Assembly: GCA_016206635.1 (NCBI GenBank)
Contig: JACQRF010000059.1
Span: 1-45,532 of the forward strand
Reading direction: 5' to 3'
Origin: Candidatus Omnitrophota bacterium
GTDB lineage: Bacteria > Omnitrophota > Gorgyraeia > 1-14-0-20-64-10 > JACQQZ01
DNA length: 45,532 bases
The position numbers and the translations under genes are program-made. Each line of letters begins with the position of its first letter. The stretch's first letter is position 1. Below the pieces are notes generated by a model, which did not search any database, was not told where the DNA came from, and saw only the letters and a list, made by a program, of their open reading frames with translations. Below, piece after piece: positions 17,011 to 45,148 of this stretch.

Positions 17011-17039
17011 GCGCTGTGCCTCGCTAGACATAGCTTGTG

Positions 17040-17048
17040 ATTGTAACA
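17040..17048 (-). promoter_or_regulatory. Candidate extended -10 promoter element (TGTTACAAT) in the only sizeable intergenic gap
   Basis: The minus-strand gap reads ctgaacgtccccttccggccgTGTTACAATcacaagctATG... It is locally AT-rich in an otherwise GC-rich window. No convincing -35 element. The element lies 8 nt upstream of ATG 17031. Confidence 0.25.
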
Positions 17049-17069
17049 CGGCCGGAAGGGGACGTTCAG

Positions 17070-18674: not shown

Positions 18675-19549
18675 CGATGCCGCTGCGCCACGATGAGATC
18701 CGCGATGATCCCCACTGCGGCGATCAGCACGGCCAGCATGATGAGGATGATGTCTGATTCCTGCAGCGACCCCGTGAGCGTCAGGCTGTAGTACGACTTG
18801 ATCCCCCATGCCATGAACAGGACGGCGGCGAGCGGGCCCAGCACCCTGAGAGGGGCGAAATAGATCGTCATCCGGATGATCGTCCCTAGATACGCCGCCG
18901 TATCCCGGATCGGGTGGAACTTCGAGCGCCCGATGCGGGGGCGGTAGACGGCGGGAATGTACTTCACCGGATGGCCGTTCATCAAGAACGCCAGCGTGAG
19001 ACTCGTGACGCAGGAGAACCCATTGGGCAATACCCAAAGATACCGCAGCGCCAGATCCCGCTTGCACGCCTTGAGTCCCGTGTTCAAATCGGGAATCGCG
19101 GCGCGGGTCAGGTAGCAGGCCAATTGCCGCAAGACCCATTTGGCCGGGATGCGCAGCAGCCGGGCGGCGCCCATCTCGCGCGTCCGGGCGCCATTGACCT
19201 GATCGTAATCGGGGAAATAACGCAGCATCTCCGGGAGCACCGACGGGTCATAGGACCCATCGGCGTCAAGCATCACGACAATGGGGCCGCGGCTCGCCAC
19301 GATCCCGAGCTTCCGCGCGGCGCCCGAGCCCCCGCGGCATGGGCGCCGGACCACGCGCGCCCCTTCGGCTTCGGCGGCCAAGGCCGTGCCATCAGTCGAC
19401 CCGTCGTCCACCACCACGATCTCGTATGGATAGGGGGTGCGGTCCATTGCCGCGCGGACGTCCCGCACCACATGGGCGATGGCCAACGCCTCGTTGAACG
19501 CCGGCAGCACGACGCTCACCTGCGGCAGCCCCGCTGCGTCAGGAGACAT
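18671..19549 (-). CDS. GT2 polyprenyl-phosphate glycosyltransferase (DPM1/GtrB-like) with C-terminal TM helices
   Basis: VSVVLPAFNEALAI, YEIVVVDDGSTDGT, VMLDADGSYDP (DxD), DLNTGLKA and hydrophobic C-terminal segments. ATG 19549 overlaps the upstream stop (19539) by 11 nt. Confidence 0.8.
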   Translation of the reverse strand: MSPDAAGLPQVSVVLPAFNEALAIAHVVRDVRAAMDRTPYPYEIVVVDDGSTDGTALAAEAEGARVVRRPCRGGSGAARKLGIVASRGPIVVMLDADGSYDPSVLPEMLRYFPDYDQVNGARTREMGAARLLRIPAKWVLRQLACYLTRAAIPDLNTGLKACKRDLALRYLWVLPNGFSCVTSLTLAFLMNGHPVKYIPAVYRPRIGRSKFHPIRDTAAYLGTIIRMTIYFAPLRVLGPLAAVLFMAWGIKSYYSLTLTGSLQESDIILIMLAVLIAAVGIIADLIVAQRHR

Positions 19550-21431
19550 CGGTCCCTTCCAGATGCCGCTCGCACCACAGCTCAAACATCAGCAAGGCCC
19601 ACAGGAGCCGTCCATGATTGCGCCGCCGGGCCCAATGGTCTTGCAGCAGTTGCTGGACCCGCGCCGGGTCCCACCACCCTCGGCGCGTCAGCCGCGCCGG
19701 CGCGAGCTGTTCCTCGGCCAACGCCCGGAGCGGCCCGCAGAGCCAGGCGGCGACTGGGATCCCAAATCCCTTTTTGGGACGACGGGACAGTGCGGTCGGC
19801 GCCAGCCCGCGCAGCGCCCGGCGGATCAGCCATTTGGTCTGAAACCCCCGAAGCTTCTGCGACGCCGGCAGCCGCGCGGCGAATTCCACGAGCGCGGTAT
19901 CCAACAACGGCACGCGCAGCTCCAATCCGTGCGCCATGCTCATGCGATCCGCCTTGGCCAAGAGATCGTCCACCAGGTAGGTATGCAGGTCTAACCGCAT
20001 GGCGGCATCCGCCGGATCTCCGTGGTCCGCGATCGGCTCCCGGGGCCATGCATCCCCTTCCAGCACCGCCGTGCCATGCGCGGGCCGCCAGAGCCGCTCC
20101 CGCTCGCCGGCCTCCAGCAATCCCATCCATGCGTAGTGGCGGTCCGCCGTCGGCAAGGACGCCCCCTGCACGAAACGGCGCGCCACAAAGTCTGCGCTGA
20201 AATTACGGTGCGACACCGGCAACCGGCCGACCCATCGTGGAATCCAGCGTTCTCGGACAACCCCCGGCAACCGCTGGTAGCGCTCGGCCATCCGGTGGGC
20301 GGGATACGTCGGGTACCCGCCGAACAGCTCGTCCCCCCCGTCGCCGCCCAGCGCCACCGTCACCTGCGTCCGGGCTAAGCGGGCAAGGTGCCAGGTCGGT
20401 ACCAGCGACGGGTCCGCCAACGGCTCATCCATCGCGCCGACCACTGCGGTCAGCGCGCCGAGCGTGGCGGCGGGGGTGAGCCGCTCGACCACGTGCGGGA
20501 CCCCGAACGCGTTGGCCGCCAGCGCCGCCGAGGCCGTCTCATCAAAGCTGGGGTCCTCAAACCCGATCGTGAACGCCGGCAGCGGGCGGGCGGCATGGCG
20601 GGCCGCCAACGCCAGCACCCAGGTGGAATCCAACCCCCCGCTCAGCAGCACGCCGACGGGGACATCGCTGACGAGATGGGAGCGCACCGCATTGGCCGCA
20701 AGGTCGCGTAACTGTGTTTCGACGTCGGGCAGGGATAGGCGAGTTGCGACCGTCGGCTCGGGAAGCTCCCAGTACCGTGTCAACCGATGGCCCTCGGCGT
20801 CGGCCGTCAGGAGGTGCCCCGGCAGGAGTTTGGAGACGCGTTGAATGATGGAGCGCGGCGCCGGGATATAGCCTTGCTGGAGGTACGCGTCCAACGCGAC
20901 GAGATCCACCTCTCGGGTAATCTGGGGATGCCGCCACAACGCCTTGAGCTCTGAGGCGAACAACAAGCGCCGGCCGATCGCGGCATAGTACAGCGGCTTG
21001 ATGCCGATGCGGTCGCGGGCGAGGAGGAGGCGCCGGCGTCGGCCGTCCCAAATCGCGAGTCCGAACATGCCTTGCAAGCGCTCGACGAACCGGTCGCCGT
21101 GCGTCTCGTAGAGATGGACGACGACTTCCGTGTCCGAACGGGTGGCAAACCGGTGGCCTTGGTTCTCCAGTTCCTCCCGGAGGACGCGGTAATTGTAGAT
21201 TTCCCCGTTGAGGACCGCCCAGACCGTCTGGTCTTCGTTGGCCAACGGCTGGTGGCCGCCAGCCACGTCAATCACGCTGAGCCGGCGGACGCCCAGCGCC
21301 GCGGACGGATCGTGGTAGACGCCGGCGTCGTCCGGCCCCCGATGCCGCATCGCCTCCCGCATTTGCTCGACGGCCGGTAGGTCCTCAGGGGGGAGCCCAT
21401 CGAAATCAGCGACGCCGCAGATGCCGCACAT
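19539..21431 (-). CDS. Asparagine synthase (glutamine-hydrolysing) family amidotransferase, copy 1 (AsnB/WbpS-like)
   Basis: MCGICG N-terminal nucleophile Cys2, an Ntn glutaminase domain, and the LLSGGLDS PP-loop of the synthetase domain. Full-length ORF of 630 aa. Confidence 0.9.
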   Translation of the reverse strand: MCGICGVADFDGLPPEDLPAVEQMREAMRHRGPDDAGVYHDPSAALGVRRLSVIDVAGGHQPLANEDQTVWAVLNGEIYNYRVLREELENQGHRFATRSDTEVVVHLYETHGDRFVERLQGMFGLAIWDGRRRRLLLARDRIGIKPLYYAAIGRRLLFASELKALWRHPQITREVDLVALDAYLQQGYIPAPRSIIQRVSKLLPGHLLTADAEGHRLTRYWELPEPTVATRLSLPDVETQLRDLAANAVRSHLVSDVPVGVLLSGGLDSTWVLALAARHAARPLPAFTIGFEDPSFDETASAALAANAFGVPHVVERLTPAATLGALTAVVGAMDEPLADPSLVPTWHLARLARTQVTVALGGDGGDELFGGYPTYPAHRMAERYQRLPGVVRERWIPRWVGRLPVSHRNFSADFVARRFVQGASLPTADRHYAWMGLLEAGERERLWRPAHGTAVLEGDAWPREPIADHGDPADAAMRLDLHTYLVDDLLAKADRMSMAHGLELRVPLLDTALVEFAARLPASQKLRGFQTKWLIRRALRGLAPTALSRRPKKGFGIPVAAWLCGPLRALAEEQLAPARLTRRGWWDPARVQQLLQDHWARRRNHGRLLWALLMFELWCERHLEGTDVS

Positions 21432-21434
21432 GCG

Positions 21435-22394
21435 TCATTCCCTCGCCGGGGCGTCGCGGCGGATCAGGTACAACGGCCGGCGGGAGAGCTCCTGGTAAAT
21501 CCGGATCGTGAATTCCGCCAGCAGGCCCATCAACATGCACTGCACGCCGCAGACGAGGGTGATCGCCATGAGAAAGATCGCGGGGCTGATCCAGCTCCCG
21601 CCCCACAGGGCGACTCGAAGGGCGATCATCCCGGCCAGCCCGAGACCGGCCGCGGTCAGCAGGAGCCCGACGACCCCAAACACATAGCCGGGCCGGGAGC
21701 CGAACGAGACGAGGAATTTCAAGGTCATCAAATCCAACAGGACTTTGATCGTCCTTCCGAGGCCGTACTTCGAGGCGCCGTGGCCGCGGACCCGATCGCG
21801 CACCGGCACTTCCGTCACGCGCGCGCCGACCCAGGCGGCCAAGATCGGCAAGAAGCGGTGTTGTTCGCCCGAGAGATGAATCTGCGTCAGCACCTGCCGC
21901 CGGTACGCCTTCAACGTGCACCCGATGTCGTGCACCGGCACGCCGAAGAGCCGCCGGGTGATGGCATTGGCGGCCTGAGAGGGCAGGCGCCGGCTGAACC
22001 AAGCGCCCGCCCGCTTCACGCGCCAGCCGCTGACGACGTCGCAGCCCTCCTCCAAAGGCCGCAGAAGCTGGGGGATATCCGACGGGTCGTTCTGGCCGTC
22101 GGCATCCATGGTTACGACGATCTCCCCGCGGGCATGGTCGAATCCGGCGGCCAGCGCCGCCGTCTGGCCGAACCGGCGGGTAAACCGGAGCACGACAATC
22201 CGGTGGCGGGACTCGCCAGCCAGGCGGGAGATGACCGCATGGCTGGCGTCGGTGCTGACGTCATCCACGAAGATCACCTCAAACGGCCGCCCCACCCCCT
22301 CCATCGCGGCGATCAGCTCCCGGAAGAGGCGCTCCAAATTCCCCGCCTCATTGTGGACCGGCAGAACTACGGAGATCATCGCGGCGTCAGTCAT
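21435..22394 (-). CDS. Polyprenyl-phosphate glycosyltransferase, ArnC/GtrB/CsbB-like GT2
   Basis: Nearly colinear with ArnC/GtrB as I recall them: ISVVLPVHNEAGNL, FEVIFVDDVSTD, RRFGQTAALAAGF, VTMDADGQNDPSDIP, DIGCTLKAYRR, HRFLPILA, GASKYG, and two C-terminal TM helices ending LLAEFTIRIY. Confidence 0.88.
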   Translation of the reverse strand: MTDAAMISVVLPVHNEAGNLERLFRELIAAMEGVGRPFEVIFVDDVSTDASHAVISRLAGESRHRIVVLRFTRRFGQTAALAAGFDHARGEIVVTMDADGQNDPSDIPQLLRPLEEGCDVVSGWRVKRAGAWFSRRLPSQAANAITRRLFGVPVHDIGCTLKAYRRQVLTQIHLSGEQHRFLPILAAWVGARVTEVPVRDRVRGHGASKYGLGRTIKVLLDLMTLKFLVSFGSRPGYVFGVVGLLLTAAGLGLAGMIALRVALWGGSWISPAIFLMAITLVCGVQCMLMGLLAEFTIRIYQELSRRPLYLIRRDAPARE

Positions 22395-23385
22395 GACCGG
22401 CTCTCATCCGGGTCCGGTAATAGTCAATCGTGCGCCGCAACCCGTCCCGCAACGGGGTCGTGGCTTCCCACCCCGTGACCCGCCTGATCTTCGAGGTGTC
22501 CGGCACGCGCCGCGGAATATCCTCATAGCTGGCGCCGAACGCCCGGCGGTACGGCACCATCCGGATGCGCGGCGTGAATCCCCCGACCTCGGCCATCAGC
22601 GCGGCCAGCCGGCGGATCGAAATCTCCTCTCCGCTGCCGACGTTGAACGTCTGGTTTTCCGCCGCCCGCGTGAACGCTACCCGCACGATCCCGTCCACGA
22701 CGTCCGTCACATACGCGAAACTGCGCGTCTGCCGGCCGTCGCCATGGATCAGGACCGGTTGGCCGTGCAGCATCGCGTGCAGCATCAGTGGCGCCACCCG
22801 CCCCATGCCCAGATCGTCCAATCGGGGGCCATATACGTTGAAGAGCCGCACGGTCACGAACGACAGACCGCGCTGCTGGTGGTAAGCCAGGCAGTAATGC
22901 TCGGCCGCGGCCTTCGCGGTCGCGTAGCACCAGCGGTTGATCGCCGGCGGCCCCAACACCCGGTCGGCATCCTCCCGCCACGGGACGCGAGGGTTCCGGC
23001 CATACACCTCGGAGGTCGAAGCCAGAATCAACTTGGCGTGGGCGCGGGCCGCCAGCCGGATGACCAGTAACGCCCCGGCTAGGTCAATGTCCAGGGTGGC
23101 CAGCGGCTCTTCGACGTAACGTTTCGGATCGGCGATCGCCGCGAAATGGAATGCGATGTCGCATCCCCGTAGGGCTCGGGTCACGAGAGGGGTGTCCAGC
23201 ACCGATCCTCGGAGGAACCGGAACTTCGGATGGGCGAGCAGATGGCGAACCTTGGTCGGCGGGGCCATATCCAATGCCACGACGCGATGCCCATCAGCCA
23301 ACAGCCGCTCGCACAGATGCGAGCCGAGGAACCCGGCGCCGCCGGTCACAACGATCCTGGCGGGGGCTCCTCCTCGAGGCGTCAT
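22387..23385 (-). CDS. UDP-glucuronate decarboxylase-type SDR, closest in pattern to the ArnA C-terminal (dehydrogenase/decarboxylase) domain
   Basis: RIVVTGGAGFLGSHL, HPKFRFLRGSV, CDIAFHFAAIADPKRY, ASTSEVYG, NRWCYATAKAAAE (YxxxK), RLFNVYGPRLD, GDGRQTRSFAYVTDVVDG, SYEDIPRRVPD. Block-by-block resemblance to ArnA residues ~315-660. ATGA overlap at 23382/23385. Confidence 0.8.
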   Translation of the reverse strand: MTPRGGAPARIVVTGGAGFLGSHLCERLLADGHRVVALDMAPPTKVRHLLAHPKFRFLRGSVLDTPLVTRALRGCDIAFHFAAIADPKRYVEEPLATLDIDLAGALLVIRLAARAHAKLILASTSEVYGRNPRVPWREDADRVLGPPAINRWCYATAKAAAEHYCLAYHQQRGLSFVTVRLFNVYGPRLDDLGMGRVAPLMLHAMLHGQPVLIHGDGRQTRSFAYVTDVVDGIVRVAFTRAAENQTFNVGSGEEISIRRLAALMAEVGGFTPRIRMVPYRRAFGASYEDIPRRVPDTSKIRRVTGWEATTPLRDGLRRTIDYYRTRMRAGHD

Positions 23386-25055
23386 GACGCGCCCCTGGCG
23401 GACGGCTTGCGGACCAGGAACGGGCCGATGGCCAGCGCATCGAGCCCGGTCACCCAAAAGGTGCGTAGCGCGTCGCGCGGGGACATGACGAGCGGCTCGC
23501 CGCGATCGTTGAACGAGGTGTTCAGCACGGCGGGGATGCCGGTCCGCTGGGCGAACCGGCTGATCAAGCGATGGTACAGCGGATTGGTCCGGCTGGAGAC
23601 CGATTGCGGCCGCACGGTGCCGTCCACGTGGGTGGCCGCCGCCAGCTCGCCGGCCTTTGACGGCTTCACGCGATAGGCGACCAGCATGAACGGGCACGGG
23701 TCCCGATACTGTGCCAGGTACTCGCCGGCCGCTTCTTCCAACAGCGACGGGGCGAACGGCCGCCACAATTCGCGGTGTTTGACTTCGGCATTGACGCGAT
23801 CCTTCATCTCCGGTAGCCCGGGATGAGCCACAATGCTCCGATTACCCAGCGCCCGGGGACCCCACTCCATGCGTCCTTGGAACCATCCGAGAATTTGTCC
23901 GCGGGCGAGGCAACCGGCGGCCGTATCGGCGATGTCGTCGCACCGCTCGTACGAGACCTTGGATTCCTTCAGCACGGTTTCGATCTCGTCAGATGAATAT
24001 TCGGGGCCCCAGTAGGCGTGATCCATCACGAACGGCCCGGCGGCGCCGGCTTGCGCGGCCACCTCCAGGGCGGCCCCGAGGGCCGTCCCGGCGTCATGCG
24101 AGGCCGGCTGCACGTAGAGCCGCCGCACGGAGGGGAGCGCCTGGATCACCATATTCATGTCGCAGTTCAAGGCGACGCCGCCGGCCAAACAGACATCGGG
24201 CACCCCGGTGTTCCGCACCGTCGCCTCCACCAGGACGGTCCCGGCCCGCTCGACCAACCGTTGGACCGAGGCTGCCCAGTCGCGGTGCCGGTCGGTGAGC
24301 GGTTCACCAGGCCGGCGGGGCGCGCCGAACGTCCGCTGGAACCGGCGCTCAAAGCTCGGCGCCACGCGGTGGGTGTCGTGATTGAATGACACCCACCCCT
24401 GGAAATCATGGATCGGCCGGCCGTACGCCGCCAGCCCCATTGTTTTGCCTTCCTCGCTGTGGTGGACGAAGCCGAGGGCATCCGTGACATGGCTGTAGAC
24501 GACGCCGAGGGAATCGTGGAGCCGAATCTTCCGGAGCCGCCGCAGGCGAGTCCCCCGCCCCACCCCCAGCAAGCCGGAGTCGTCCTCGCCGTTGCCGTCC
24601 AGCGTGACGACGCTGGCTTCGGGGAACCCGGAGGCCCGCCATGCGCTGGCGGCATGGGCCACATGATGCGAGACAAACGCTGTGCGGCGCGGCCCGGCCT
24701 CCGGGTCAAGGCGCCGGAGCCCCCGCTGGAGTTTTTCCCATTGAATGAGATATTCGGCCGTCGCCCCCGCCGACTCGAGGATTTGGATGAAATGGCCGAC
24801 GCGGGCTTCCTCCCCGGCCATCTTTGCGAAATACGGGACGGGCCCATCGAACCCCACCGCCAGGCAGTCCACCTGCCGCAGCCGGATGCCGGCCGCCGAG
24901 AGGCAGTAGGCGATCGCCTTCAACGGCGGGATCCGCGGCGCGTGTTTGACCCGCAGGAATCGTTCCTCCTCGGCCGCGGCGACCAGCCGGCCATCGTTGA
25001 CGAGCGCGGCCGCGCTGTTCCACGACACCGGCGCCGTGATGCCCAACACGTACAT
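23382..25055 (-). CDS. Carbamoyltransferase, NodU/CmcH/TobZ family
   Basis: MYVLGI...SAAALVNDGRLVAAAEEERFLRVKHA, SHHVAHAASAW, GGVALNC, NTSFNDRGEPLV. ATG 25055 shares one nucleotide with the upstream stop (TGATG). Confidence 0.88.
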   Translation of the reverse strand: MYVLGITAPVSWNSAAALVNDGRLVAAAEEERFLRVKHAPRIPPLKAIAYCLSAAGIRLRQVDCLAVGFDGPVPYFAKMAGEEARVGHFIQILESAGATAEYLIQWEKLQRGLRRLDPEAGPRRTAFVSHHVAHAASAWRASGFPEASVVTLDGNGEDDSGLLGVGRGTRLRRLRKIRLHDSLGVVYSHVTDALGFVHHSEEGKTMGLAAYGRPIHDFQGWVSFNHDTHRVAPSFERRFQRTFGAPRRPGEPLTDRHRDWAASVQRLVERAGTVLVEATVRNTGVPDVCLAGGVALNCDMNMVIQALPSVRRLYVQPASHDAGTALGAALEVAAQAGAAGPFVMDHAYWGPEYSSDEIETVLKESKVSYERCDDIADTAAGCLARGQILGWFQGRMEWGPRALGNRSIVAHPGLPEMKDRVNAEVKHRELWRPFAPSLLEEAAGEYLAQYRDPCPFMLVAYRVKPSKAGELAAATHVDGTVRPQSVSSRTNPLYHRLISRFAQRTGIPAVLNTSFNDRGEPLVMSPRDALRTFWVTGLDALAIGPFLVRKPSARGAS

Positions 25056-27502
25056 CAGGCGGCCCTCCGCCGCCGGCGCCACCACACGGCGATCCCCAGC
25101 ACGGTGATCGCCGTGACGACGGCCCCGATCCGCAGCGTCACGGGGGCATACCACAACTCAACGGTGTGCCGGCCGGTCCCCTGCACGAGCACCCCGCGAA
25201 TCAGCCCGTTGGCCATGTCGAGCGGGACCGGGTGGTTGTCCACGCGCGCGTGCCAGCCGGGGAAATGCGTCTCGCTCACGACCACCGGCGTGACCGGCCG
25301 CTCAGTCTCCACGCGCAAACGCCAGTAGCCGGGCGTCGCGCGCTCGACCGCCACCGTGGCTGGGAGGGTCGCATCCGTTGCCCGCGGTGAGCGCAGCAAG
25401 GTATCCACCACCGCTGCGGAGTCAGGACTCAGCGATTTGGCCGGGAAGATTCGATCGAGCATCGAGTTGGCGGTCACGTAGGGGATAGTATACCGGAACC
25501 CGGCGACAAACAATGGAATGACCTGACCCCCACTCCCGCGGTATGCCGTCAGGAGCCGCTGGGCGTCCGCCACCTCGCGGACGCCGGGCCTCGTCAAGAA
25601 CACCGCGCGGAACGGGGCGAGTTCCTCCACCGTGAAGCCGTCCAGGCGGGCGGGCGACGTGCTGAACACCGCCCAGCGCGTCGGGTCGAACGCCCGATGA
25701 TACACCACCAGCTTGGCCTCCACGGCATTATAGTCCGGGGCATCATCGCTGCCGACCAGCAGCGCCGCCTCATCGGGGATCCAGACCCTTGGGAGGCATG
25801 TCGTCAACTCGTGCAATTCGGCATCCGGTCGCGCGTAGACCAGCCGCGTGTGGGCCGGGTGCCGGACCAGATGGTCCGAGGGCATCAGCAGGTACCGGAC
25901 ATTCATCAGGCGGAACAACGTGAACAGCCGCCCCATCTCCTCAAGATCGTCTCGGTCATGATAATGGACGATGAGGCCGTACCGAGGCAAATAGGCCGGG
26001 TCCAGCGGCATCACCAGCTCGATCCCCTGGAGGAACGTTGAGTACGGGGTGATCTGGGGGAGCCGCCCGCCATCATGGTAGACGCGGAACGGCTGGGCGG
26101 ATGGCCACCGCGCGACCACGCCCAAGCGAAGATTCCAGTCATCCGGGTGTTGGCCCTGCGCATCGTATCGCCTCAACGCCTCGCCGAGCGATCCGGCGTC
26201 GGCCGACGCCGCGGTCGGGGGCATCGGCCGCACGTGCCCGAAGTCATGGCGCCGCAGAACATGGTAGAACGGCGCGGCGGCGGCCCCGACGCAGAACGCG
26301 ATGCCGGCCACCGCCGCCCATCGAACGGCCACGAACCGTCGGGACCGCGCGTTCGCCAGGGCGCGGAACACCCACGCGGCCCCCAACGCAGCCAGCACCG
26401 GCAGCGCGAGCCGGAACACGAAGAGGACACGCCCCGTATAGTTGGAGTACCGGAACCCAGGGAGCAGGTAATAGAGCCCGGCGAACAGGTCTACCGGCAC
26501 AGCCGGCCCCATGGCTGCCCAACAGGCGATGAACGCCATCATCAGAAAAGTCAGCCGGGCCCGCCACCCCTCCGTGCGGAATGCAGTGACACAGGCGACG
26601 GCGGCGAAGCCCAGGTAGATCCCGTTCACCCAGAGCGACCAGGCCGGCGGCAGGTAGCCGAAAAATTGTCCGACCGCGCGCCCTAAGTCCGGCCAAGAAG
26701 GGTTCTGCCCTGTCCGCTCCAAGTCATCCACCGTCCACCCGGCTCTCGTTGATAACACGGTGGATTCCAGGACCGGTAATAATTTGATGGCGGCGAGCCC
26801 GGCCGCCACCACGACGACCGCCAGGCCATGCCGAAAGAGCTGCGCCAGGCGTGGCCTCCACCGTTTCACTGGCTCTATTAACGCCGCGCCGGCTAGGAGC
26901 AGGCCGTACGCCAGCGCCGTCCCGTGCATCAAGTACGTCGTGCCGGCCAACACCTGTGCCGCGAGACACGCCCCTGCGGCGACCAGGAATCCAGGGCGGT
27001 GTTCTGTCGTCCCACGCCAGAGACAGGCGATCCCCCACACCGCCCACGGCAGCGCATAGAGCTCAGGCACGCCGCCCCCCTGGATGAAATGCAGCATCCT
27101 GGCATTGAGCAGGAGGCCGACGGGGGCCAGAACGGCGGCCACCGGGGGACATCCGAGCCACCGAGCCAGCAGGTACCCGCCCCCGGCGGCTGCCACTAAA
27201 TGCAGGTACACAACCAGCCGCAATCCGGCATGCACGGTCGGCGCCAGCCAAACCAGCCAGGCCGGTGGATAGAAAAGACCGGCCTGGGGGCTGCCGATGA
27301 GCGAATCCCCGCCGCCGAGGTACGGATCCCACAACGGGAGGCGGTGGAACCCGAAGAGGATCTGTTTCATGACGGCGTACGGATGTCCGAAGAACACGGT
27401 GCCTTCTCCGAACCGCATGGTCATCGGCGCCAGCACGATCGGACTCAATACCACCGCGATCACCGCGATGACCGTCCACCCCATCAGGCGCGAGCGACTC
27501 AT
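25055..27502 (-). CDS. YfhO-like GT-C membrane protein, full-length fused form (815 aa)
   Basis: Polytopic N-terminal half (FFGHPYAVMKQIL..HRLPLWDPYLGGGD..GLFYPPAW..YLHLVAAAGGGYLLARWLG..WGIACLWRG). Extracytoplasmic C-terminal half (FRLMNVRYLLMPSD, HFPGWHARVDNHPV, GTGRHTVELWYAPV) and a final TM. ATGA overlap at 27499/27502. Confidence 0.75.
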   Translation of the reverse strand: MSRSRLMGWTVIAVIAVVLSPIVLAPMTMRFGEGTVFFGHPYAVMKQILFGFHRLPLWDPYLGGGDSLIGSPQAGLFYPPAWLVWLAPTVHAGLRLVVYLHLVAAAGGGYLLARWLGCPPVAAVLAPVGLLLNARMLHFIQGGGVPELYALPWAVWGIACLWRGTTEHRPGFLVAAGACLAAQVLAGTTYLMHGTALAYGLLLAGAALIEPVKRWRPRLAQLFRHGLAVVVVAAGLAAIKLLPVLESTVLSTRAGWTVDDLERTGQNPSWPDLGRAVGQFFGYLPPAWSLWVNGIYLGFAAVACVTAFRTEGWRARLTFLMMAFIACWAAMGPAVPVDLFAGLYYLLPGFRYSNYTGRVLFVFRLALPVLAALGAAWVFRALANARSRRFVAVRWAAVAGIAFCVGAAAAPFYHVLRRHDFGHVRPMPPTAASADAGSLGEALRRYDAQGQHPDDWNLRLGVVARWPSAQPFRVYHDGGRLPQITPYSTFLQGIELVMPLDPAYLPRYGLIVHYHDRDDLEEMGRLFTLFRLMNVRYLLMPSDHLVRHPAHTRLVYARPDAELHELTTCLPRVWIPDEAALLVGSDDAPDYNAVEAKLVVYHRAFDPTRWAVFSTSPARLDGFTVEELAPFRAVFLTRPGVREVADAQRLLTAYRGSGGQVIPLFVAGFRYTIPYVTANSMLDRIFPAKSLSPDSAAVVDTLLRSPRATDATLPATVAVERATPGYWRLRVETERPVTPVVVSETHFPGWHARVDNHPVPLDMANGLIRGVLVQGTGRHTVELWYAPVTLRIGAVVTAITVLGIAVWWRRRRRAA

Positions 27503-30129
27503 GGCTGTCTCCGGCGCGGCCAGATCAATGTCCCGGTCAGGGCGACGACGCCCACGATCGCTATCGTGGTCGCCAACGGCACCACAGCTTGAGGGTGGAA
27601 GCGAATCGCATATGCCCCGCGCGGCGCCTCCAACACCCACCCGTTGGCATAGCCATTCACCGTCACCGGGCGTCCCGCCGCATCCGACCCCAGGCGCCAT
27701 CCTGCGTGCGCCGATTCCGCCATCATGAGCACCACCGGCTCCATCGAGGACGGCGCGGCATCATACGCGACGGGTGACGCGCGCCGCTCGATCACCGGGA
27801 CGAAGCGCGGATCCCAGGGTTGCGCGCCCGGCTGACTGAAAATCAAGGTGACGTGCGTGCCGTTGGGGGCGTCCATGGCGATCTCGTGCGCCCCGGCGTT
27901 GAGCGTCATGGTCGTGGAGGCCCCGGGCGTCATCTGCCACGGCGACCCATCGAGGCGCCCGCGGATCATCGGCGATCGAGGGATGCTCGGTGTGTCCGTG
28001 TACAGCCGTCCCTGGCACGACCAATGGCCATCCCTCGGCACGTGGAGCCGGTATTCGACCCCAGGGGTCACCATCGCGATCACCCACAGCGGGAGTGTGC
28101 CGTCACGAAGCCGCTCCGCCGCCGGCGCCGGGAGCGGCCGCCCATCCGTCACCACCGCCCCGACCATCCCTCGCTGCCACAACCGGTCCACCGCGCCGGC
28201 CTCGATCTGCTGTTCAGCAAAGACGAGCGCCGGACGCTCCAGGAGGGCCGTATCCGCCAGCGGCAGCGCCAGCTCCACCGGGCCGTAGACGATCGCGACC
28301 CGGCGCGCCGCCGTCATGTGGGCCATCGGATCGAGGACTTCATACACATCCCACGCCCCGAACGTATTGACCAACGGCAGGTCCCGCTGCCGCCGCAGCA
28401 CCCCTCGGATGAACGCCGGGCTATCGTGCACCATGTTGCGGGGCTTGTAGTAATTGTACCGGACGTCGTTCTGCTGAACGAGATAGCGGACCTGCAGCAA
28501 GCCCAGGAGCCGCCCCAGCGACTCGGTGGCTTCGGTGTTGATCGCCTGGACCACCAGCTTGGCGAGCGGGCGGCTCTTGTTCTCCGCGGCCTGCGCTACC
28601 AAGGTGAACGCCGGATCGTACGGATAGACCACCGGCCGGGTCGTCAAATCGCCGAGCACGGAGCCAAACCCCGCATAGCCCCAGTCGGTCACCCAGGGGC
28701 TGTCGCCGGGGATCGTGAAAACCCGGCCCGGGGCCGATTGCTGCTCCAGCCATCCCGCCGCCTCATAGGCGTAGTCGGGAATCCGGATTCGGTCCGGCGG
28801 CAGAAATGTCCGTTCTGAAGCGTCGCTGAAGAGGCGCCCGGTCACCAACGGGTAGGCGTACAGGAGCTGGGCGCCGAGGAACGCGATGACGAGCGCGGTC
28901 CCGCTCTTGGTCCACCGCTCCGGGTGCCGGGCGGCCCAGACTGCGATGGCCTGTCCGACCAAGAAGGCGTACCCCAGGCAAATCCAAAGCCCAAACTTAT
29001 AATAGGGAGAACGCACAGCCCAGAACAACGGCAGGTGGTCAAACGCCCACCGATACAGGAGACGGAACGGCGGATGCACGCCCGTGGCGAGGACCACGCC
29101 GAGCACCGACAACCCGATAAACAGCGGGGCGTGCGAGCGCCGGCTGCGCACAGCGCCGTAGAGGGCCATGGTCGGCGTCAGCCAGCTGAGGGTGAGCCAT
29201 CCCGGGTGGCGCAGCAGCGCCGCCGCGTACGTGCGATACGGATCCACCATCCCATCCCGCCAGGTCCAGTCGGCCTGGAGCCGGAGGACGTTGGCCAAAC
29301 TGGTGTGCGCGCTGGTCCCCTCAAGCCAATGCCACGCCACCGCTCGATGGCCCGCCAGGGCCTGGGGATCCTGCATCGACGCAGAGACGGCCGCGGCTTG
29401 GGGAAGCCACCAGAAGCTGTGCACAACGGTCCACGCTAGGAGCGTCCCCGCGGCGAACGCCAGATTGCTGCTGATGGGTTGGCCCATCGCGCGCGATCGG
29501 GCGATTCCCACCAGCATGCAGAGGACCATCACCCCGGCGATCGCGATCGCCTCGGACGGGTTGTTGCCCATGGCCGAGATCGGCAGCGACACCAAGACGA
29601 TCCAGCACGCCGCCTGACGGCGCGAGCGCTGACCGGCCATTGCTTGGATCGCCCACAGCAGGACGAGGGGGAGGATGGCGTAGCTGGTCATCAGCGGCGG
29701 TTTCATGCCCAGCCAGAGATGTTCCTGCCAGACGTTGTACAGGTAGACGCCGGCCGCCGCCACGCCGGCGGCGATCCGTGCCGGACCGCGCACCAGGTGA
29801 ACGACCAATGCATACATGGCCAGCCCCGCCAGGGGGAACCAGATGGCGACCTGGAGCTTTTGCAGCACGGGGAGATCGGCGATCACGCGGGAGGCCACCG
29901 CCGTCACGCCATGGAACAGGATCAACGATCGATCGAAGAGCGCCGCGGCGCCGGCCGCCAGCTGATCGTTCCACAGGTACCGGAACTGCGCCCATTCGCT
30001 CCACGTCACCGGGAGCCGGATGTCCGACGTCTTCAGCAGCCAGTCGCCGCGGAACCAAGTCCACACCGGCACCCATCCCAACCCGAGGACGAGGGCGGCG
30101 CCCCGCCAGAACCGCGCGCGGTCAGACAT
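27499..30129 (-). CDS. AftD/DUF3367-like GT-C membrane glycosyltransferase (paralog 2, 876 aa)
   Basis: N-terminal TM plus KTSDIRLPVTWSEW..YLWNDQLAAG. Motifs VLRLQADWTWRDG..DPY, TGVHPPFRLLYRWAFDHLPLFWAVRSPYYKF and VRYLVQQND. ATG 30129 overlaps the upstream stop (30122) by 8 nt. Confidence 0.65.
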   Translation of the reverse strand: MSDRARFWRGAALVLGLGWVPVWTWFRGDWLLKTSDIRLPVTWSEWAQFRYLWNDQLAAGAAALFDRSLILFHGVTAVASRVIADLPVLQKLQVAIWFPLAGLAMYALVVHLVRGPARIAAGVAAAGVYLYNVWQEHLWLGMKPPLMTSYAILPLVLLWAIQAMAGQRSRRQAACWIVLVSLPISAMGNNPSEAIAIAGVMVLCMLVGIARSRAMGQPISSNLAFAAGTLLAWTVVHSFWWLPQAAAVSASMQDPQALAGHRAVAWHWLEGTSAHTSLANVLRLQADWTWRDGMVDPYRTYAAALLRHPGWLTLSWLTPTMALYGAVRSRRSHAPLFIGLSVLGVVLATGVHPPFRLLYRWAFDHLPLFWAVRSPYYKFGLWICLGYAFLVGQAIAVWAARHPERWTKSGTALVIAFLGAQLLYAYPLVTGRLFSDASERTFLPPDRIRIPDYAYEAAGWLEQQSAPGRVFTIPGDSPWVTDWGYAGFGSVLGDLTTRPVVYPYDPAFTLVAQAAENKSRPLAKLVVQAINTEATESLGRLLGLLQVRYLVQQNDVRYNYYKPRNMVHDSPAFIRGVLRRQRDLPLVNTFGAWDVYEVLDPMAHMTAARRVAIVYGPVELALPLADTALLERPALVFAEQQIEAGAVDRLWQRGMVGAVVTDGRPLPAPAAERLRDGTLPLWVIAMVTPGVEYRLHVPRDGHWSCQGRLYTDTPSIPRSPMIRGRLDGSPWQMTPGASTTMTLNAGAHEIAMDAPNGTHVTLIFSQPGAQPWDPRFVPVIERRASPVAYDAAPSSMEPVVLMMAESAHAGWRLGSDAAGRPVTVNGYANGWVLEAPRGAYAIRFHPQAVVPLATTIAIVGVVALTGTLIWPRRRQP

Positions 30130-31642
30130 GGAGGAGACAATAGCGATCGGCGCGGTGGATGACCTGGGCCTCGGCTAGTTGCAGCTCCGCGAGCGTGACG
30201 AACTTCTCATTGACCAACACGTAATTCACCCGGAACTGGGCGATAATATCCGAGAGCGGTTTGGTGAGGCGCGGCCACAAGCCGGGGTAACGGGTATTGT
30301 GCGCGTGCGAGTTGTCCGTGGACACGACGCGGGCGCGCGTGAAGTACATCACGGCATCGGCCAAGTAGGTCGGCATGGTCAGCAGCCGAATCTCGCCGGG
30401 GAGGCCGTTCAGGTGATCGAAGATCCGCCGGAGGGCCGGCGTCACGGACCGTTCGGTGTCGTTGAGGACCACCACGCGCTGCAGGGCGATGGCCGGCGCC
30501 AACCCGCCGAGCAGCAATACTGCGGGGAGTCCCCACGCGATGCCGGATGCGGCCGGGGACGTCCACGCGCTCAGGAAGACCGTGGCGCCGACCACGGCCG
30601 CCGGGGCATTGGCGTACTCCAGGTACCGTTCCCCCTCTCCCAAAAATCGAATCGGGGGGATTTGTCGAATAGCCACGCCGGCGACCCAGAGCGTTCCCGC
30701 CCAGACGGCGCACCACGCGATCAGCCATGACGGCAATCCCCCGCCCTCCCACACCCCTCGCCACATCAACCATCCGTAGGCCCCCAACACGCAGGGGAGC
30801 GCCGGATGGGCGGCGACGACCGCCATGGCCGGCAGCCGGCGAATCGCCTGGTAGAGACGAAAGACGGGATCCGGGTCCTTCTGATGAGGGGGTGGAAAGC
30901 CGCGGACTTGATGGGCGAATCGGTTTCGAATATTCGCGCGCCAACAGCGCAGCATCGCGAGGTGGCCCGAGAGAACTCGGCGGTACGCCCCCCCAGACAG
31001 CAGCAGGGCCACGCCGCCGCCGGCCGCCAGGTACGCCAGCGGCCACCAGGAACGGCTGAGGAGCGCCATCACCAGGACCAAGACCACGATCGCCTGAATC
31101 GCCAAGCGATGCGTCAGCAAGAGCACTCCCAGCATGGCCGCGGCGATCGCCATCCATCCCCACTGCCCCGTTCCCAGAAATCCTATGAGGGGAAACACGG
31201 AGAGGCTGAAGAGGAGTGACGACAGGGGGCGGGTGGTGAGACTGGCATTCTCCATAACCACCAGGGGACTGAGGCTGTAACATGCCTGGGCCGCGACGGC
31301 CACGGCCAGCCGGCCGGTCATCGCATACACTAGGCCGAACACCAGGCCGTGGTGGCACGCATCGGTCATGGCGGAGGCGCACCACTGGCTTCGTTCAGCC
31401 ACCGGTTTCGGCAACCATGCGAGGAGCACTCGCAACACCGGCGGATAATCCGATGGGGCGTCAATCAGATAATGCTCGGGCATCGTGTCAAACACCCGGC
31501 CCGTGCGGCGAATATGGTCGGCCGCGGCGAGGTGGCGCCACGTGTCCACGCCGAACCAGCGATTCCGCCACCGCGGCCATGTTTGGAGGATGGCGCTCAT
31601 TGCGACCCCTGCCAGACCGATCCCCCAACCGACAATCGTCAT
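30122..31642 (-). CDS. Polytopic membrane protein with a C-terminal soluble domain; GT-C-like or O-antigen-polymerase-like (ArnT-role candidate)
   Basis: MTIVGWGIGLAGVAM..., FGVDTWRHLAAADHIRRTG in the first loop, about 11 hydrophobic segments, and C-terminal FRVNYVLVNEKF. ATGA overlap at 31639/31642. Function is uncertain. Confidence 0.5.
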   Translation of the reverse strand: MTIVGWGIGLAGVAMSAILQTWPRWRNRWFGVDTWRHLAAADHIRRTGRVFDTMPEHYLIDAPSDYPPVLRVLLAWLPKPVAERSQWCASAMTDACHHGLVFGLVYAMTGRLAVAVAAQACYSLSPLVVMENASLTTRPLSSLLFSLSVFPLIGFLGTGQWGWMAIAAAMLGVLLLTHRLAIQAIVVLVLVMALLSRSWWPLAYLAAGGGVALLLSGGAYRRVLSGHLAMLRCWRANIRNRFAHQVRGFPPPHQKDPDPVFRLYQAIRRLPAMAVVAAHPALPCVLGAYGWLMWRGVWEGGGLPSWLIAWCAVWAGTLWVAGVAIRQIPPIRFLGEGERYLEYANAPAAVVGATVFLSAWTSPAASGIAWGLPAVLLLGGLAPAIALQRVVVLNDTERSVTPALRRIFDHLNGLPGEIRLLTMPTYLADAVMYFTRARVVSTDNSHAHNTRYPGLWPRLTKPLSDIIAQFRVNYVLVNEKFVTLAELQLAEAQVIHRADRYCLLHV

Positions 31643-45137: not shown

Positions 45138-45148
45138 TGCCGATCGCC

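What the first reader, a model, noticed from the sequence alone, without database searches (positions are those of the whole stretch)
21435..23385. Dispersed Arn-like (aminopentose / 4-formamido-arabinose) pathway without ArnD, ArnE/F or a recognisable ArnT
Gene 22387-23385 matches the ArnA decarboxylase domain block by block: STSEVYG, NRWxYxxxK, FNxxGPRLD, and (Y/S)Y(Q/E)D(V/I)..R.P. It is immediately followed by an ArnC/GtrB-type polyprenyl-phosphate transferase (21435-22394). The remaining Arn chemistry is encoded as separate genes elsewhere in the operon: a DegT aminotransferase (42631-43779) and a stand-alone 172-aa formyltransferase core (31639-32157). In the established Arn pathway these steps turn UDP-GlcA into undecaprenyl-P-Ara4FN, which is deformylated (ArnD), flipped (ArnE/F) and transferred by the GT-C enzyme ArnT to lipid A. 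No deformylase and no SMR-like flippase are visible here. The likely acceptor enzymes are instead the unusual GT-C proteins of this operon. This suggests an N-formyl or amino pentose is built into a polymer rather than onto lipid A. A second UDP-GlcA decarboxylase (UXS-like, 45149-45532) points to a pentose-rich glycan.
Basis: partly seen in the sequence, partly recalled or inferred. Interest (0 to 1): 0.75.

Follow-up and report, generated by a model that had tools for sequence, protein, structure and literature searches.

The report
Arn-like aminopentose module, new GT-C partner
Two adjacent genes in a giant sugar-polymer operon of an uncultured Omnitrophota bacterium look like the first steps of the pathway that puts aminoarabinose on lipid A, but here they appear to feed a previously undescribed membrane glycosyltransferase family that decorates some other surface glycan.

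Summary
Gene 22387-23385 is a full-length UDP-glucuronate decarboxylase-type SDR carrying all four quoted motifs. Gene 21435-22394 is a polyprenyl-phosphate GT2 whose closest solved relative is ArnC. The two genes overlap by 8 nt.

- A neighbour-joining tree and gene context put the SDR with the Arn-associated decarboxylases, not with canonical UXS. A canonical UXS sits truncated at 45149-45532.
- The SDR's closest orthologs usually sit next to a GNAT N-acetyltransferase, WecD-like in 8 of the 11 loci that have one. In two loci an ArnB-like aminotransferase is also adjacent, which supports keto-pentose, then amino-pentose, then N-acyl-pentose chemistry.
- The window's own DegT does not fit. 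It resembles C-3 aminotransferases (DesV, QdtB, WbpE) and has its own likely partners, a 3-dehydrogenase and a QdtC-like acetyltransferase.
- The 172-aa formyltransferase keeps its catalytic residues but belongs to a generic short family.
- ArnD, ArnE/F and a sequence-recognisable ArnT are absent from the window.
- The claim of no ArnT fails at fold level. Gene 30122-31642 has no significant Pfam match. Its AlphaFold model is a GT-C fold with ArnT as top structural match, and its family is a conserved neighbour of this SDR subclade.

Verdict: a new variant of the three-component lipid-linked glycosylation scheme. The sugar identity is unproven.

The parts
22387..23385 (-). Extended SDR, a UDP-glucuronate decarboxylase of an ArnA-DH-like subclade (332 aa)
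   Evidence: It matches Pfam Epimerase at 5.5e-58. In NCBIfam, PRK11908 scores 179 bits (cutoff 294) and ArnA 158 bits (cutoff 777). The catalytic residues T124, S125, E126, Y154, K158 and R292/R293 are invariant among 20 homologs. In the neighbour-joining tree its subclade has 92% bootstrap support. That subclade joins the ArnA/U4kpxs and split-arn-operon decarboxylases at 74%, apart from UXS.
21435..22394 (-). Polyprenyl-phosphate glycosyltransferase, GT2, ArnC-like (319 aa, C-terminal TM hairpin)
   Evidence: The best solved relatives are ArnC structures (4.6e-56), ahead of GtrB (3e-35) and DPMS (2e-22). It is 34% identical to E. coli ArnC and 38-43% to ArnCs of environmental arn operons. 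D45, D97-A-D99, Q101, R125, R135, S139 and R203 are conserved. The NCBIfam ArnC score is 210 bits, below the cutoff of 529.
30122..31642 (-). 506-aa polytopic membrane protein with a predicted GT-C (GT-C_A) fold; proposed transferase for the lipid-linked sugar
   Evidence: The AF2 model has pLDDT 92.9 and pTM 0.92. The top Foldseek matches are ArnT 5f15 and 5ezm (E 4e-7, TM 0.56/0.53), followed by STT3, AglB, PglB, DPY19 and AftA. An Asp just after TM1 is invariant. The family is adjacent to the SDR's orthologs in L005, L011, L015, L016 and L098, and one gene away in L001 and L002. Only a sub-threshold PMT_2 match was found, and there is no profile similarity to ArnT.
31639..32157 (-). Short (172-aa) formyltransferase, N-domain only; its stop overlaps the GT-C start as ATGA
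   Evidence: It matches Pfam Formyl_trans_N at 1e-13. N93, H95 and D130 are invariant in 22 family members. The order MTase, FT, GT-C is conserved in L096 (FT 70% identical); L102 (FT 77%) has MTase, FT and then an unexamined partial ORF. The junction was read.
42631..43779 (-). DegT-family aminotransferase; the only one in the window, and more like C-3 aminotransferases than ArnB
   Evidence: PDB matches: 7b0d 1e-93, DesV 1e-91, QdtB 2e-84, WbpE 7e-72, ArnB 5e-55 to 4e-51. It is 34% identical to E. coli ArnB and 31-32% to the ArnB-like DegTs of L098 and L099.
45149..45532 (-). C-terminal part of a canonical UDP-xylose synthase, cut by the contig end
   Evidence: It is 64% identical to Azospirillum UXS, 58% to human UXS1 and only 35% to the SDR at 22387-23385.
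43776..45224 (-). MOP/Wzx-type flippase; the only flippase candidate in the window
   Evidence: Pfam Polysacc_synt at 7.5e-8, with about 12 predicted TM segments.
19539..21431 (-). AsnB-type glutamine amidotransferase, a conserved neighbour of the SDR subclade
   Evidence: Pfam Asn_synthase at 2e-104. It is 51-60% identical to a gene placed just after the SDR and GNAT in L001, L002, L008 and L097.
23382..25154 (-). NodU-like carbamoyltransferase, translationally coupled to the SDR
   Evidence: Pfam Carbam_trans_N and Carbam_trans_C. It is 81% identical in L096 and 58% in L097.
4904..5926 (-). GFO/IDH/MocA oxidoreductase, sugar-nucleotide 3-dehydrogenase-like; a likely partner of the DegT (rival pathway)
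   Evidence: The NCBIfam model for UDP-GlcNAc 3-dehydrogenase scores 150 bits, below its cutoff of 450. PDB matches include 7bvj, 3q2k and 3q2i; I identify 7bvj as GnnA and 3q2k and 3q2i as WlbA from memory, not from the tool output.
4206..4898 (-). Left-handed beta-helix N-acetyltransferase, QdtC/WlbB-like (rival pathway)
   Evidence: The best PDB match is QdtC at 8e-36, followed by other 3-amino-sugar N-acetyltransferases and WlbB at 7e-17.

Best explanation
The two genes are the nucleotide-sugar step and the lipid-loading step of an Arn-type three-component module embedded in a very large surface-glycan operon.

Proposed steps:
1. The SDR oxidatively decarboxylates UDP-glucuronate to a UDP-4-keto-pentose. 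The enzyme class is shown by homology; release of the keto product is inferred.
2. The keto sugar is transaminated and N-acylated. This is inferred from orthologs, which sit beside GNAT N-acetyltransferases (WecD-like in 8 of the 11 loci) and, in two loci, ArnB-like aminotransferases. In this window the acyl donor enzyme would be the short formyltransferase at 31639-32157. The aminotransferase is either the atypical DegT at 42631-43779 or lies off the contig.
3. The ArnC-like GT2 loads the sugar onto polyprenyl phosphate. The enzyme class is shown; the donor sugar is inferred.
4. The lipid-linked sugar is flipped, perhaps by the MOP-type flippase.
5. The new ArnT-fold GT-C at 30122-31642 transfers it to a cell-envelope glycan rather than lipid A. 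The fold and the gene linkage are shown; the activity and the acceptor are inferred.

No deformylase is encoded in the window, so the N-acyl group would stay on the sugar.
For: SDR class and grouping:
- The catalytic set is intact.
- It clusters with Arn-associated decarboxylases and not with UXS: 74% and 64% bootstrap at the two relevant nodes, and 92% for its own subclade.
- A canonical UXS in the same operon argues that the two decarboxylases have different products.
- 38 more distant homologs (42-50% identical) sit in ArnC / formyltransferase / SDR / ArnD / ArnT operons.

Context of the 15 subclade loci:
- A GNAT lies next to the SDR in 11 of them. The L001 and L002 GNATs match the NCBIfam WecD model at 79 and 58 bits, below its cutoff of 219; six more are called WecD-like by similarity to the L001 GNAT.
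- ArnB-like DegTs (43% and 41% identical to E. coli ArnB) are adjacent in L098 and L099.
- L098 carries GT-C, SDR, GNAT and an ArnB-like DegT contiguously, and is syntenic with the window.

GT2: ArnC is the closest solved relative and the catalytic residues are conserved. ArnC-like orthologs (46-47% identical) recur about 10 kb from the SDR in L008 and L097.

GT-C: a high-confidence GT-C model with ArnT as top match. It is a conserved neighbour of the SDR.

Formyltransferase: its stop overlaps the GT-C start, an arrangement conserved in L096 and probably in L102. The catalytic N, H and D are invariant.

E. coli ArnC accepts only the N-formylated donor (bioRxiv 10.1101/2025.01.29.634835). A MOP/MATE flippase can serve a three-component system (PMC11127046).
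Against: - No ArnB-like aminotransferase and no GNAT are in the window.
- The only DegT resembles C-3 aminotransferases and has its own plausible partners.
- DegT, formyltransferase and ArnC-like GT2 are not conserved neighbours of the SDR in most relatives.
- The short formyltransferase family also occurs in NeuB-type clusters.
- By raw similarity the SDR scores higher with human UXS1 than with ArnA.
- Whether a decarboxylase releases the 4-keto sugar or xylose cannot be read from sequence (PMC10338323).
- The tree is neighbour-joining with 50 bootstraps and only moderate support.
- The GT-C shows no profile similarity to ArnT. Its donor and acceptor are unknown.
- The contig ends inside the operon, so the gene inventory is incomplete.
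Confidence: 0.45

Rival explanations
1. The SDR is simply a second, divergent UDP-xylose (or other neutral pentose) synthase. Its product is used by cytoplasmic Leloir glycosyltransferases, or is loaded as polyprenyl-P-xylose. No amino or formamido pentose is made.
For: The highest pairwise scores are to human UXS1 (2e-55, against 2e-44 for ArnA). Product outcome is not predictable from active-site residues, and ArnA-type enzymes can also make xylose. No ArnB-like aminotransferase is in the window. Several subclade loci (L004 and L014 to L016) show no GNAT or ArnB-like DegT within reach.
Against: A canonical UXS is already in the operon. The tree separates the SDR from UXS. Eleven of 15 orthologous loci have an N-acetyltransferase next to the SDR, and two have an ArnB-like aminotransferase. 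Neither makes sense for a neutral pentose.
Confidence: 0.2
2. The adjacency of the SDR and the ArnC-like GT2 is incidental. The GT2 loads a different sugar onto polyprenyl phosphate, for example the 3-amino or 3-acetamido sugar made by the GFO dehydrogenase, DegT and an acyltransferase. The SDR product goes elsewhere.
For: In the Binatia loci L006, L018 and L023 a DegT (38-42% identical to the window's), a GT2 (45-48% identical over its catalytic domain) and a GFO oxidoreductase (30-32%) lie side by side. In most relatives the position next to the SDR is held by a GNAT, not by this GT2. The window has at least one more polyprenyl-P-type GT2, at 18671-19585, and several GT-C-like proteins.
Against: The SDR and GT2 overlap by 8 nt, so they are translationally coupled. 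Over its full length the GT2 is as close to the true ArnCs of arn operons (up to 43%, 211 bits) as to the Binatia GT2. ArnC is by far its closest characterised relative.
Confidence: 0.17
3. The SDR decarboxylates a modified uronic acid, such as UDP-GlcNAcA or a 2,3-diacetamido uronate, in the manner of UDP-XylNAc synthase. It would then yield an acetamido-pentose, with the GFO / DegT / LbH pathway acting upstream.
For: The window encodes a WbpB / WbpE / WbpD-like trio and two AsnB-type amidotransferases, which are typical of uronic-acid chemistry. That UDP-GlcNAcA decarboxylases are UXS homologs is my own knowledge and was not tested here.
Against: No UDP-GlcNAc 6-dehydrogenase is seen in the window. 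The orthologs' neighbours (ArnB-like DegT, WecD-like GNAT) point to amination at C-4 after decarboxylation. Streptomyces homologs sit next to plain nucleotide-sugar dehydrogenases.
Confidence: 0.08
4. These genes are part of a canonical lipid A Ara4N (polymyxin-resistance type) pathway, with arnB, arnD, arnT and arnEF encoded elsewhere in the genome.
For: Homologs of the SDR at 42-50% identity lie in complete split arn operons.
Against: The window's genes sit in a polysaccharide operon of more than 45 kb. The closest orthologs (52-65% identical) are never in arn operons. Instead they sit with a different GT-C family, GNATs, AsnB and carbamoyltransferases.
Confidence: 0.05

Closest known systems
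Arn (PmrHFIJKLM) pathway for lipid A 4-amino-4-deoxy-L-arabinose
   Same: It also has a UDP-GlcA decarboxylase of the same clade, an ArnC-like polyprenyl-phosphate GT2 with the same catalytic residues, a formyltransferase-fold enzyme, and a final transferase with the ArnT-like GT-C fold. Orthologous loci add an ArnB-like aminotransferase.
   Different: The decarboxylase and formyltransferase are separate proteins, and the formyltransferase lacks the C-terminal domain. No ArnD, ArnE/F or ArnB ortholog is in the window. The GT-C has no sequence or profile similarity to ArnT. Relatives use a GNAT, which implies N-acetyl rather than N-formyl. The genes sit in a polysaccharide operon, so the acceptor is probably a glycan and not lipid A, and the N-acyl group is probably retained.
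Three-component periplasmic glycosylation systems (GtrA/B/C; GT136 pentofuranose system, PMC11127046)
   Same: The logic matches: a polyprenyl-P-sugar synthase, a flippase (which may be MOP/MATE type) and a GT-C that modifies a glycan outside the cytoplasm.
   Different: The donor here would be a decarboxylase-derived pentose, probably N-acylated and aminated, rather than glucose or a PRPP-derived pentofuranose. The GT-C is a different family that Pfam does not recognise. Whether it belongs to an existing CAZy family was not testable.
Stand-alone UDP-4-keto-pentose/UDP-xylose synthase (NCBIfam PRK11908, Ralstonia type) and secondary-metabolite decarboxylases (CalS9, AtmS9, EvdS6)
   Same: These are also stand-alone UDP-GlcA decarboxylases that release the 4-keto-pentose for a PLP aminotransferase.
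   Different: The window's SDR is only 27-30% identical to PRK11908-type proteins and falls below the model cutoff (179 bits against 294). It forms its own subclade.
UDP-xylose synthase (UXS)
   Same: Same fold and catalytic residues, with 35-38% identity.
   Different: It lies in a separate clade in the tree, has different gene neighbours, and coexists with a canonical UXS in the same operon.

Membership tests
ArnA dehydrogenase/decarboxylase (UDP-GlcA C-4 oxidative decarboxylase) | Extended SDR with a GxxGxxG motif, a T/Y/K triad, the S-E of STSE and the C-terminal catalytic Arg (ArnA R619) | tested here: met
   GGAGFLG, T124, S125, E126, Y154, K158 and R292/R293 are present and invariant among 20 homologs.
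ArnA dehydrogenase/decarboxylase (UDP-GlcA C-4 oxidative decarboxylase) | Score above the curated NCBIfam equivalog cutoff (ArnA NF005998 or PRK11908) | tested here: not met
   158 bits against 777, and 179 bits against 294.
ArnA dehydrogenase/decarboxylase (UDP-GlcA C-4 oxidative decarboxylase) | Phylogenetic grouping with Arn-associated decarboxylases rather than UXS or 4,6-dehydratases | tested here: met
   Neighbour-joining tree of 115 sequences. The clade holding the query subclade, ArnA/U4kpxs and 38 arn-operon SDRs has 74% support, and the node excluding UXS has 64%. RfbB and GalE fall outside. Support is moderate.
ArnA dehydrogenase/decarboxylase (UDP-GlcA C-4 oxidative decarboxylase) | Gene linkage to a 4-aminotransferase and an N-acyltransferase | tested here: inconclusive
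   Met in orthologs: a GNAT is adjacent in 11 of 15 loci and an ArnB-like DegT in L098 and L099. Not met in the window itself.
ArnA dehydrogenase/decarboxylase (UDP-GlcA C-4 oxidative decarboxylase) | Release of UDP-4-keto-pentose and NADH instead of reduction to UDP-xylose | not testable with these tools
   The literature states that the outcome cannot be deduced from structure or sequence (PMC10338323).
ArnC (undecaprenyl-phosphate Ara4FN transferase) | GT-A domain with DXD, the acceptor-phosphate arginines (R128, R137), S141 and R205, plus a C-terminal TM hairpin | tested here: met
   All are conserved: D97-A-D99, R125, R135, S139 and R203. TM segments are predicted at residues 235-297.
ArnC (undecaprenyl-phosphate Ara4FN transferase) | Score above the NCBIfam equivalog cutoff | tested here: not met
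   210 bits against 529. ArnC is nevertheless the best solved relative.
ArnC (undecaprenyl-phosphate Ara4FN transferase) | Specificity for UDP-L-Ara4FN | not testable with these tools
   No sugar-specificity residues are defined in the ArnC structure paper.
ArnB (UDP-Ara4O aminotransferase) | Orthology to ArnB, meaning closest to ArnB among sugar aminotransferases and above the curated cutoff | tested here: not met
   238 bits against a cutoff of 631. C-3 aminotransferases score 245-317 bits, against 174-190 for ArnB structures. It is 31-32% identical to the ArnB-like DegTs next to the SDR's orthologs.
ArnA formyltransferase domain | Catalytic Asn-His-Asp and the N-terminal formyltransferase fold | tested here: met
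   N93, H95 and D130 are invariant. It matches Pfam Formyl_trans_N.
ArnA formyltransferase domain | C-terminal subdomain (Formyl_trans_C) and equivalog-level similarity | tested here: not met
   The protein is 172 aa with no C-terminal domain and an altered SLLP motif. The ArnA model scores 48 bits against 777. It is as similar to Fmt as to ArnA.
ArnT (GT83 lipid A Ara4N transferase) | Sequence membership (Pfam PMT, PMT_2 or ArnT_C; profile similarity to ArnT) | tested here: not met
   PMT_2 scores 20.8 bits, below the cutoff of 26.1, and only in the window's protein. None of 27 other family members matches any Pfam model. hhalign against an ArnT alignment gives a probability of 1.9%. BLAST gives nothing.
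ArnT (GT83 lipid A Ara4N transferase) | GT-C_A fold with an acidic residue after TM1 and a periplasmic C-terminal domain | tested here: met
   AF2 pLDDT is 92.9. ArnT 5f15 and 5ezm are the top Foldseek matches (E 4e-7, TM about 0.55). Asp33 is invariant, and there is an alpha/beta domain at residues 400-506.
ArnD / ArnE / ArnF | Presence of a polysaccharide-deacetylase-fold deformylase and an SMR/EamA-type flippase pair | tested here: not met
   No matches by Pfam on all called genes, nor by six-frame TBLASTN with E. coli, Binatia and Variovorax queries (all E > 0.1). The contig is incomplete.

The most novel reading that the evidence does not exclude
A widespread family of roughly 500-residue GT-C glycosyltransferases, absent from Pfam, may be the dedicated transferase of a second, non-lipid-A Arn-like system. 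The family has more than 1,000 clusters at 50% identity and occurs in Omnitrophota, Chloroflexota and other uncultured lineages. In this system a permanently N-formylated or N-acetylated 4-amino-4-deoxypentose would be carried on polyprenyl phosphate and built into a cell-envelope polymer. As far as I know, such a sugar has not been reported in a finished bacterial glycan.
Probability: 0.35. Interest if true: 0.72.

Novelty: new variant of a known kind. Interest (0 to 1): 0.56.

Why it matters
If correct, the aminoarabinose chemistry known from polymyxin resistance is a special case of a broader, older toolkit. Uncultured phyla would be using that toolkit to decorate surface polymers.

It would also assign a first tentative function, donor type and gene partners to a large GT-C family that has no annotation. 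The compact four-gene module in the relative L098 (GT-C, decarboxylase, GNAT, ArnB-like aminotransferase) could be reconstituted in vitro or in E. coli.

In addition, the result shows that ArnA/ArnC-like annotations in metagenomes should not be read as lipid A modification or polymyxin resistance.

Tried and rejected
- Sequence search of the 506-aa membrane protein against PDB chains found nothing. Profile-profile comparison with an ArnT alignment also found nothing. Only the predicted fold linked it to GT-C enzymes.
- I looked for residues that separate keto-releasing decarboxylases from xylose-forming ones. The literature says none are known.
- I looked for Ara4FN-specificity residues in ArnC. 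None are defined.
- I considered the window's DegT as the ArnB equivalent and rejected it as the default, because it is most similar to C-3 aminotransferases and dissimilar to the orthologs' ArnB-like DegTs.
- I considered the w37713-type GT2, which is the conserved GT2 next to the SDR in relatives, as the polyprenyl-P synthase. Its best family matches are MftF, EpsD and PgaC-type GT2s, not Pren-P GTs.
- The closest cluster, L096, turned out to carry a non-orthologous SDR' (4,6-dehydratase-like), a DegT' and a GT2-GNAT module, so it could not confirm the window's pathway.
- UDP-apiose/xylose synthase could not be placed in the tree because no sequence was retrievable. It appears only as a weaker PDB match (6h0p, 3e-37).
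- No maximum-likelihood tree software was available, so only a neighbour-joining tree was built.


Full report
**Source and layout.** The window is a complete 45,532-bp contig of a 'Candidatus Omnitrophica bacterium' MAG. It is about 67% G+C and carries essentially one long minus-strand operon. Pfam and NCBIfam scans show a very large glycan-biosynthesis cluster. It contains:
- a truncated UXS and a MOP/Wzx flippase;
- a DegT, two AsnB-type amidotransferases and methyltransferases;
- GT4 and GT2 enzymes;
- three giant paralogous membrane proteins and YfhO-like proteins;
- a carbamoyltransferase;
- a GFO/IDH/MocA oxidoreductase and a hexapeptide acetyltransferase.

**Observation check.** Both genes of the finding are real.
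- The SDR starts at 23385. GC3 jumps there, and its ATG overlaps the stop of the upstream carbamoyltransferase as ATGA.
- The SDR stop overlaps the GT2 start by 8 nt.
- The four quoted motifs are all present, within a full-length match to the decarboxylase group of extended SDRs: Pfam Epimerase 5.5e-58, human UXS1 2e-55, ArnA 2e-44.
- STSEVYG and the arginine motif are common to UXS and ArnA. Of the references checked, only E. coli ArnA shares the exact RWxYxxxK and GPRLD forms that UXS lacks. A Streptomyces SDR also has RWxYxxxK, and Variovorax U4kpxs lacks GPRLD.
- The fragment at 45149-45532 is a canonical UXS: 64% identical to Azospirillum UXS, 58% to human UXS1, and only 35% to the SDR under study.

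**What the SDR is.** The catalytic residues (T124, S125, E126, Y154, K158, R292/R293) are invariant in 20 homologs. It scores below the curated cutoffs for ArnA (158 against 777 bits) and for the stand-alone 4-keto-pentose/xylose synthase (179 against 294), so it is not an equivalog of either.

I built a neighbour-joining tree of 115 sequences. It included:
- E. coli ArnA-DH;
- two PRK11908-annotated proteins, one of them inside a Variovorax arn operon;
- human and two bacterial UXS;
- RfbB and GalE as outgroups;
- the SDRs from 80 genomic loci.

The query falls in a 13-member subclade with 92% bootstrap support. That subclade joins ArnA/U4kpxs and 38 SDRs from split arn operons at 74%. Canonical UXS is excluded at 64%.

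The arn-operon context of the 42-50% identical homologs is unambiguous. They show the order ArnC, formyltransferase, SDR, ArnD, with ArnT upstream or downstream, in Binatia, NC10, Polyangiaceae and other lineages. Streptomyces homologs (42-44%) sit beside nucleotide-sugar dehydrogenases. This fits UDP-GlcA as the substrate. The literature states that the product (4-keto-pentose or xylose) cannot be deduced from the active site (PMC10338323).

**Context of the SDR's own subclade (52-65% identity).** Fifteen loci were examined.
- A GNAT N-acetyltransferase lies next to the SDR in 11. The L001 and L002 GNATs match the NCBIfam model for WecD, the dTDP-4-amino-4,6-dideoxygalactose acyltransferase, at 79 and 58 bits against a cutoff of 219. 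Six more resemble the L001 GNAT.
- In L098 and L099 an aminotransferase is also adjacent. It is 43% and 41% identical to E. coli ArnB.
- This is the pattern expected for keto-pentose, then 4-amino-pentose, then N-acyl-pentose. It is hard to reconcile with a neutral xylose product.
- An AsnB-type amidotransferase (51-60% identical to 19539-21431) and carbamoyltransferases are further conserved neighbours.

**The GT2.** Its best solved relatives are three ArnC structures (about 5e-56), well ahead of GtrB (3e-35) and DPMS (2e-22). It is 34% identical to E. coli ArnC and up to 43% to ArnCs of environmental arn operons. It keeps every catalytic or acceptor-binding residue named for ArnC, namely the DXD motif, Q104, R128, R137, S141 and R205, and it has the C-terminal TM hairpin. 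It is below the ArnC equivalog cutoff (210 against 529 bits). Orthologs at 46-47% identity recur about 10 kb from the SDR in two related clusters. Donor specificity cannot be inferred.

**The dispersed partners.**
- The DegT does not behave as an ArnB. C-3 aminotransferases (7b0d, DesV, QdtB, WbpE) score 1e-93 to 7e-72, while ArnB structures score 5e-55 to 4e-51. It is only 31-32% identical to the ArnB-like enzymes next to the SDR's orthologs.
- The window also encodes a sugar-nucleotide 3-dehydrogenase-like GFO oxidoreductase and a QdtC/WlbB-like N-acetyltransferase. Together with the DegT these form a self-sufficient route to a 3-acetamido sugar.
- The 172-aa formyltransferase has only the N-terminal domain and is as similar to Fmt as to ArnA. 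Its Asn-His-Asp triad is invariant across a family of about 27 short (159-187 aa) proteins.
- Its two closest relatives lie in the same setting: MTase, FT, GT-C in L096, and MTase, FT and a partial downstream ORF in L102. More distant members lie in NeuB-type nonulosonic-acid clusters. It is therefore a generic sugar N-formyltransferase.
- No GNAT is present in the window.

**Missing and found Arn components.** ArnD, ArnE/F, SMR proteins and ArnT are undetectable in the window by BLASTP, six-frame TBLASTN and Pfam.

The gene directly downstream of the formyltransferase (30122-31642; its ATG overlaps the FT stop) encodes a 506-aa polytopic protein with only a sub-threshold PMT_2 match.
- Its family is adjacent to the SDR's orthologs in L005, L011, L015, L016 and L098, and one gene away in L001 and L002.
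- At least 12 of 30 word-search homologs have the same longest-contig length as an SDR homolog, so they probably share a contig.
- AlphaFold2 on a 31-sequence alignment gave pLDDT 92.9 and pTM 0.92.
- Foldseek's best matches are the two ArnT structures (E 4e-7, TM about 0.55), followed by STT3, AglB, PglB, DPY19 and AftA.
- An Asp immediately after TM1 is invariant. This is where GT-C enzymes place their catalytic acid.
- At sequence-profile level there is no similarity to ArnT (hhalign probability 1.9%).
- A profile search of 1.84 billion representatives finds 1,591 members at E ≤ 1e-3 and 346 at E ≤ 1e-30.
- None of 27 diverse members matches any Pfam model.

**Model.** The best reading is an Arn-like three-component module. 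The SDR makes a UDP-4-keto-pentose. Amination and N-acylation follow, with formyl in this window and acetyl in relatives. The ArnC-like GT2 loads the sugar onto polyprenyl phosphate. A flippase moves it across the membrane; a MOP-type flippase is encoded, and such flippases serve the GT136 system (PMC11127046). The new GT-C then transfers it to a glycan.

The weak link is the aminotransferase, which is either the atypical DegT or is encoded beyond the contig ends; the operon is cut at 45532 inside the UXS gene. I put this model at about 0.45. The rivals are:
- a neutral-pentose synthase (0.20);
- a GT2 that loads another sugar (0.17);
- decarboxylation of a modified uronate (0.08);
- a canonical lipid A pathway with the remaining genes elsewhere (0.05).

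**Comparison and novelty.** It works like the Arn pathway and like Gtr/GT136 three-component systems. However, membership tests fail for ArnA, ArnC, ArnB and ArnT at the curated-model level, and ArnD and ArnE/F are absent. It is best filed as a new variant of a known kind. The genuinely new element is the uncharacterised GT-C family and its conserved linkage to an ArnA-DH-like decarboxylase, with a GNAT in 11 of 15 loci and an ArnB-like aminotransferase in two.

Noticed in passing
window 14633-17091 (minus): Two overlapping ORFs in different frames (15826-17091 and 14633-16225) match the N-terminal and C-terminal halves of the YfhO-like paralog at 25055-27700, at 41-44% identity. This looks like a frameshifted or split gene, or an assembly error.
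   Followed up: partly
window 7134-~10550, 27499-30129, 32840-36448 (minus): Three giant paralogous membrane proteins, 29-32% identical to one another, each with an N-terminal multi-TM block and a single C-terminal TM. None matches Pfam apart from a marginal AftD GT-C match. Homologs recur in every related Omnitrophota or Chloroflexota cluster.
   Followed up: partly
window 4206-5926 and 42631-43779 (minus): A GFO/IDH/MocA 3-dehydrogenase-like gene, a QdtC-like hexapeptide N-acetyltransferase and the DesV/QdtB/WbpE-like DegT together make a plausible pathway to a 3-acetamido sugar. They lie 37 kb apart in the same operon.
   Followed up: partly
window 10556-11599 (minus): This is a real GT2 gene with uniform GC3 of about 77%. 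It shows that the 1,296-aa ORF at 7134-11024 must start near 10550. It is a paralog (38% identical) of the GT2 at 37713-38729.
   Followed up: partly
L006, L018, L023 (Binatia arn operons), about 13.5-18.5 kb in each locus: After ArnT these operons carry a second module: a PMT_2 GT-C, a DegT, an ArnC-like GT2 and a GFO oxidoreductase. No separate ArnB ortholog is in range. This may be a second lipid-linked amino-sugar modification, or a non-orthologous ArnB.
   Followed up: no
L096 15755-17527 (minus): In the cluster closest to the window, an ArnC-like GT2 catalytic domain is fused to a WecD-like GNAT. It sits downstream of a 4,6-dehydratase-like SDR and a PseC/ArnB-like DegT.
   Followed up: partly
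L100, L101: Members of the short formyltransferase family (46-51% identical) lie in clusters with two NeuB genes, a CMP-sugar synthetase and aminotransferases. One is in a CPR bacterium (Wildermuthbacteria). This suggests N-formylated nonulosonic acids.
   Followed up: no
window 17070-19139 (minus): A 689-aa ORF with no Pfam or NCBIfam match and no predicted TM segment. GC3 indicates that the real start is about 160 codons in. Its 5' part overlaps the AglJ/DPM-like GT2 at 18671-19585.
   Followed up: no
window 19539-21431 and 40812-42626 (minus): Two AsnB-type glutamine amidotransferases, 39% identical to each other. The first is conserved at 51-60% identity just after the SDR and GNAT in relatives. 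Its substrate is unknown; it might amidate a uronic acid.
   Followed up: no
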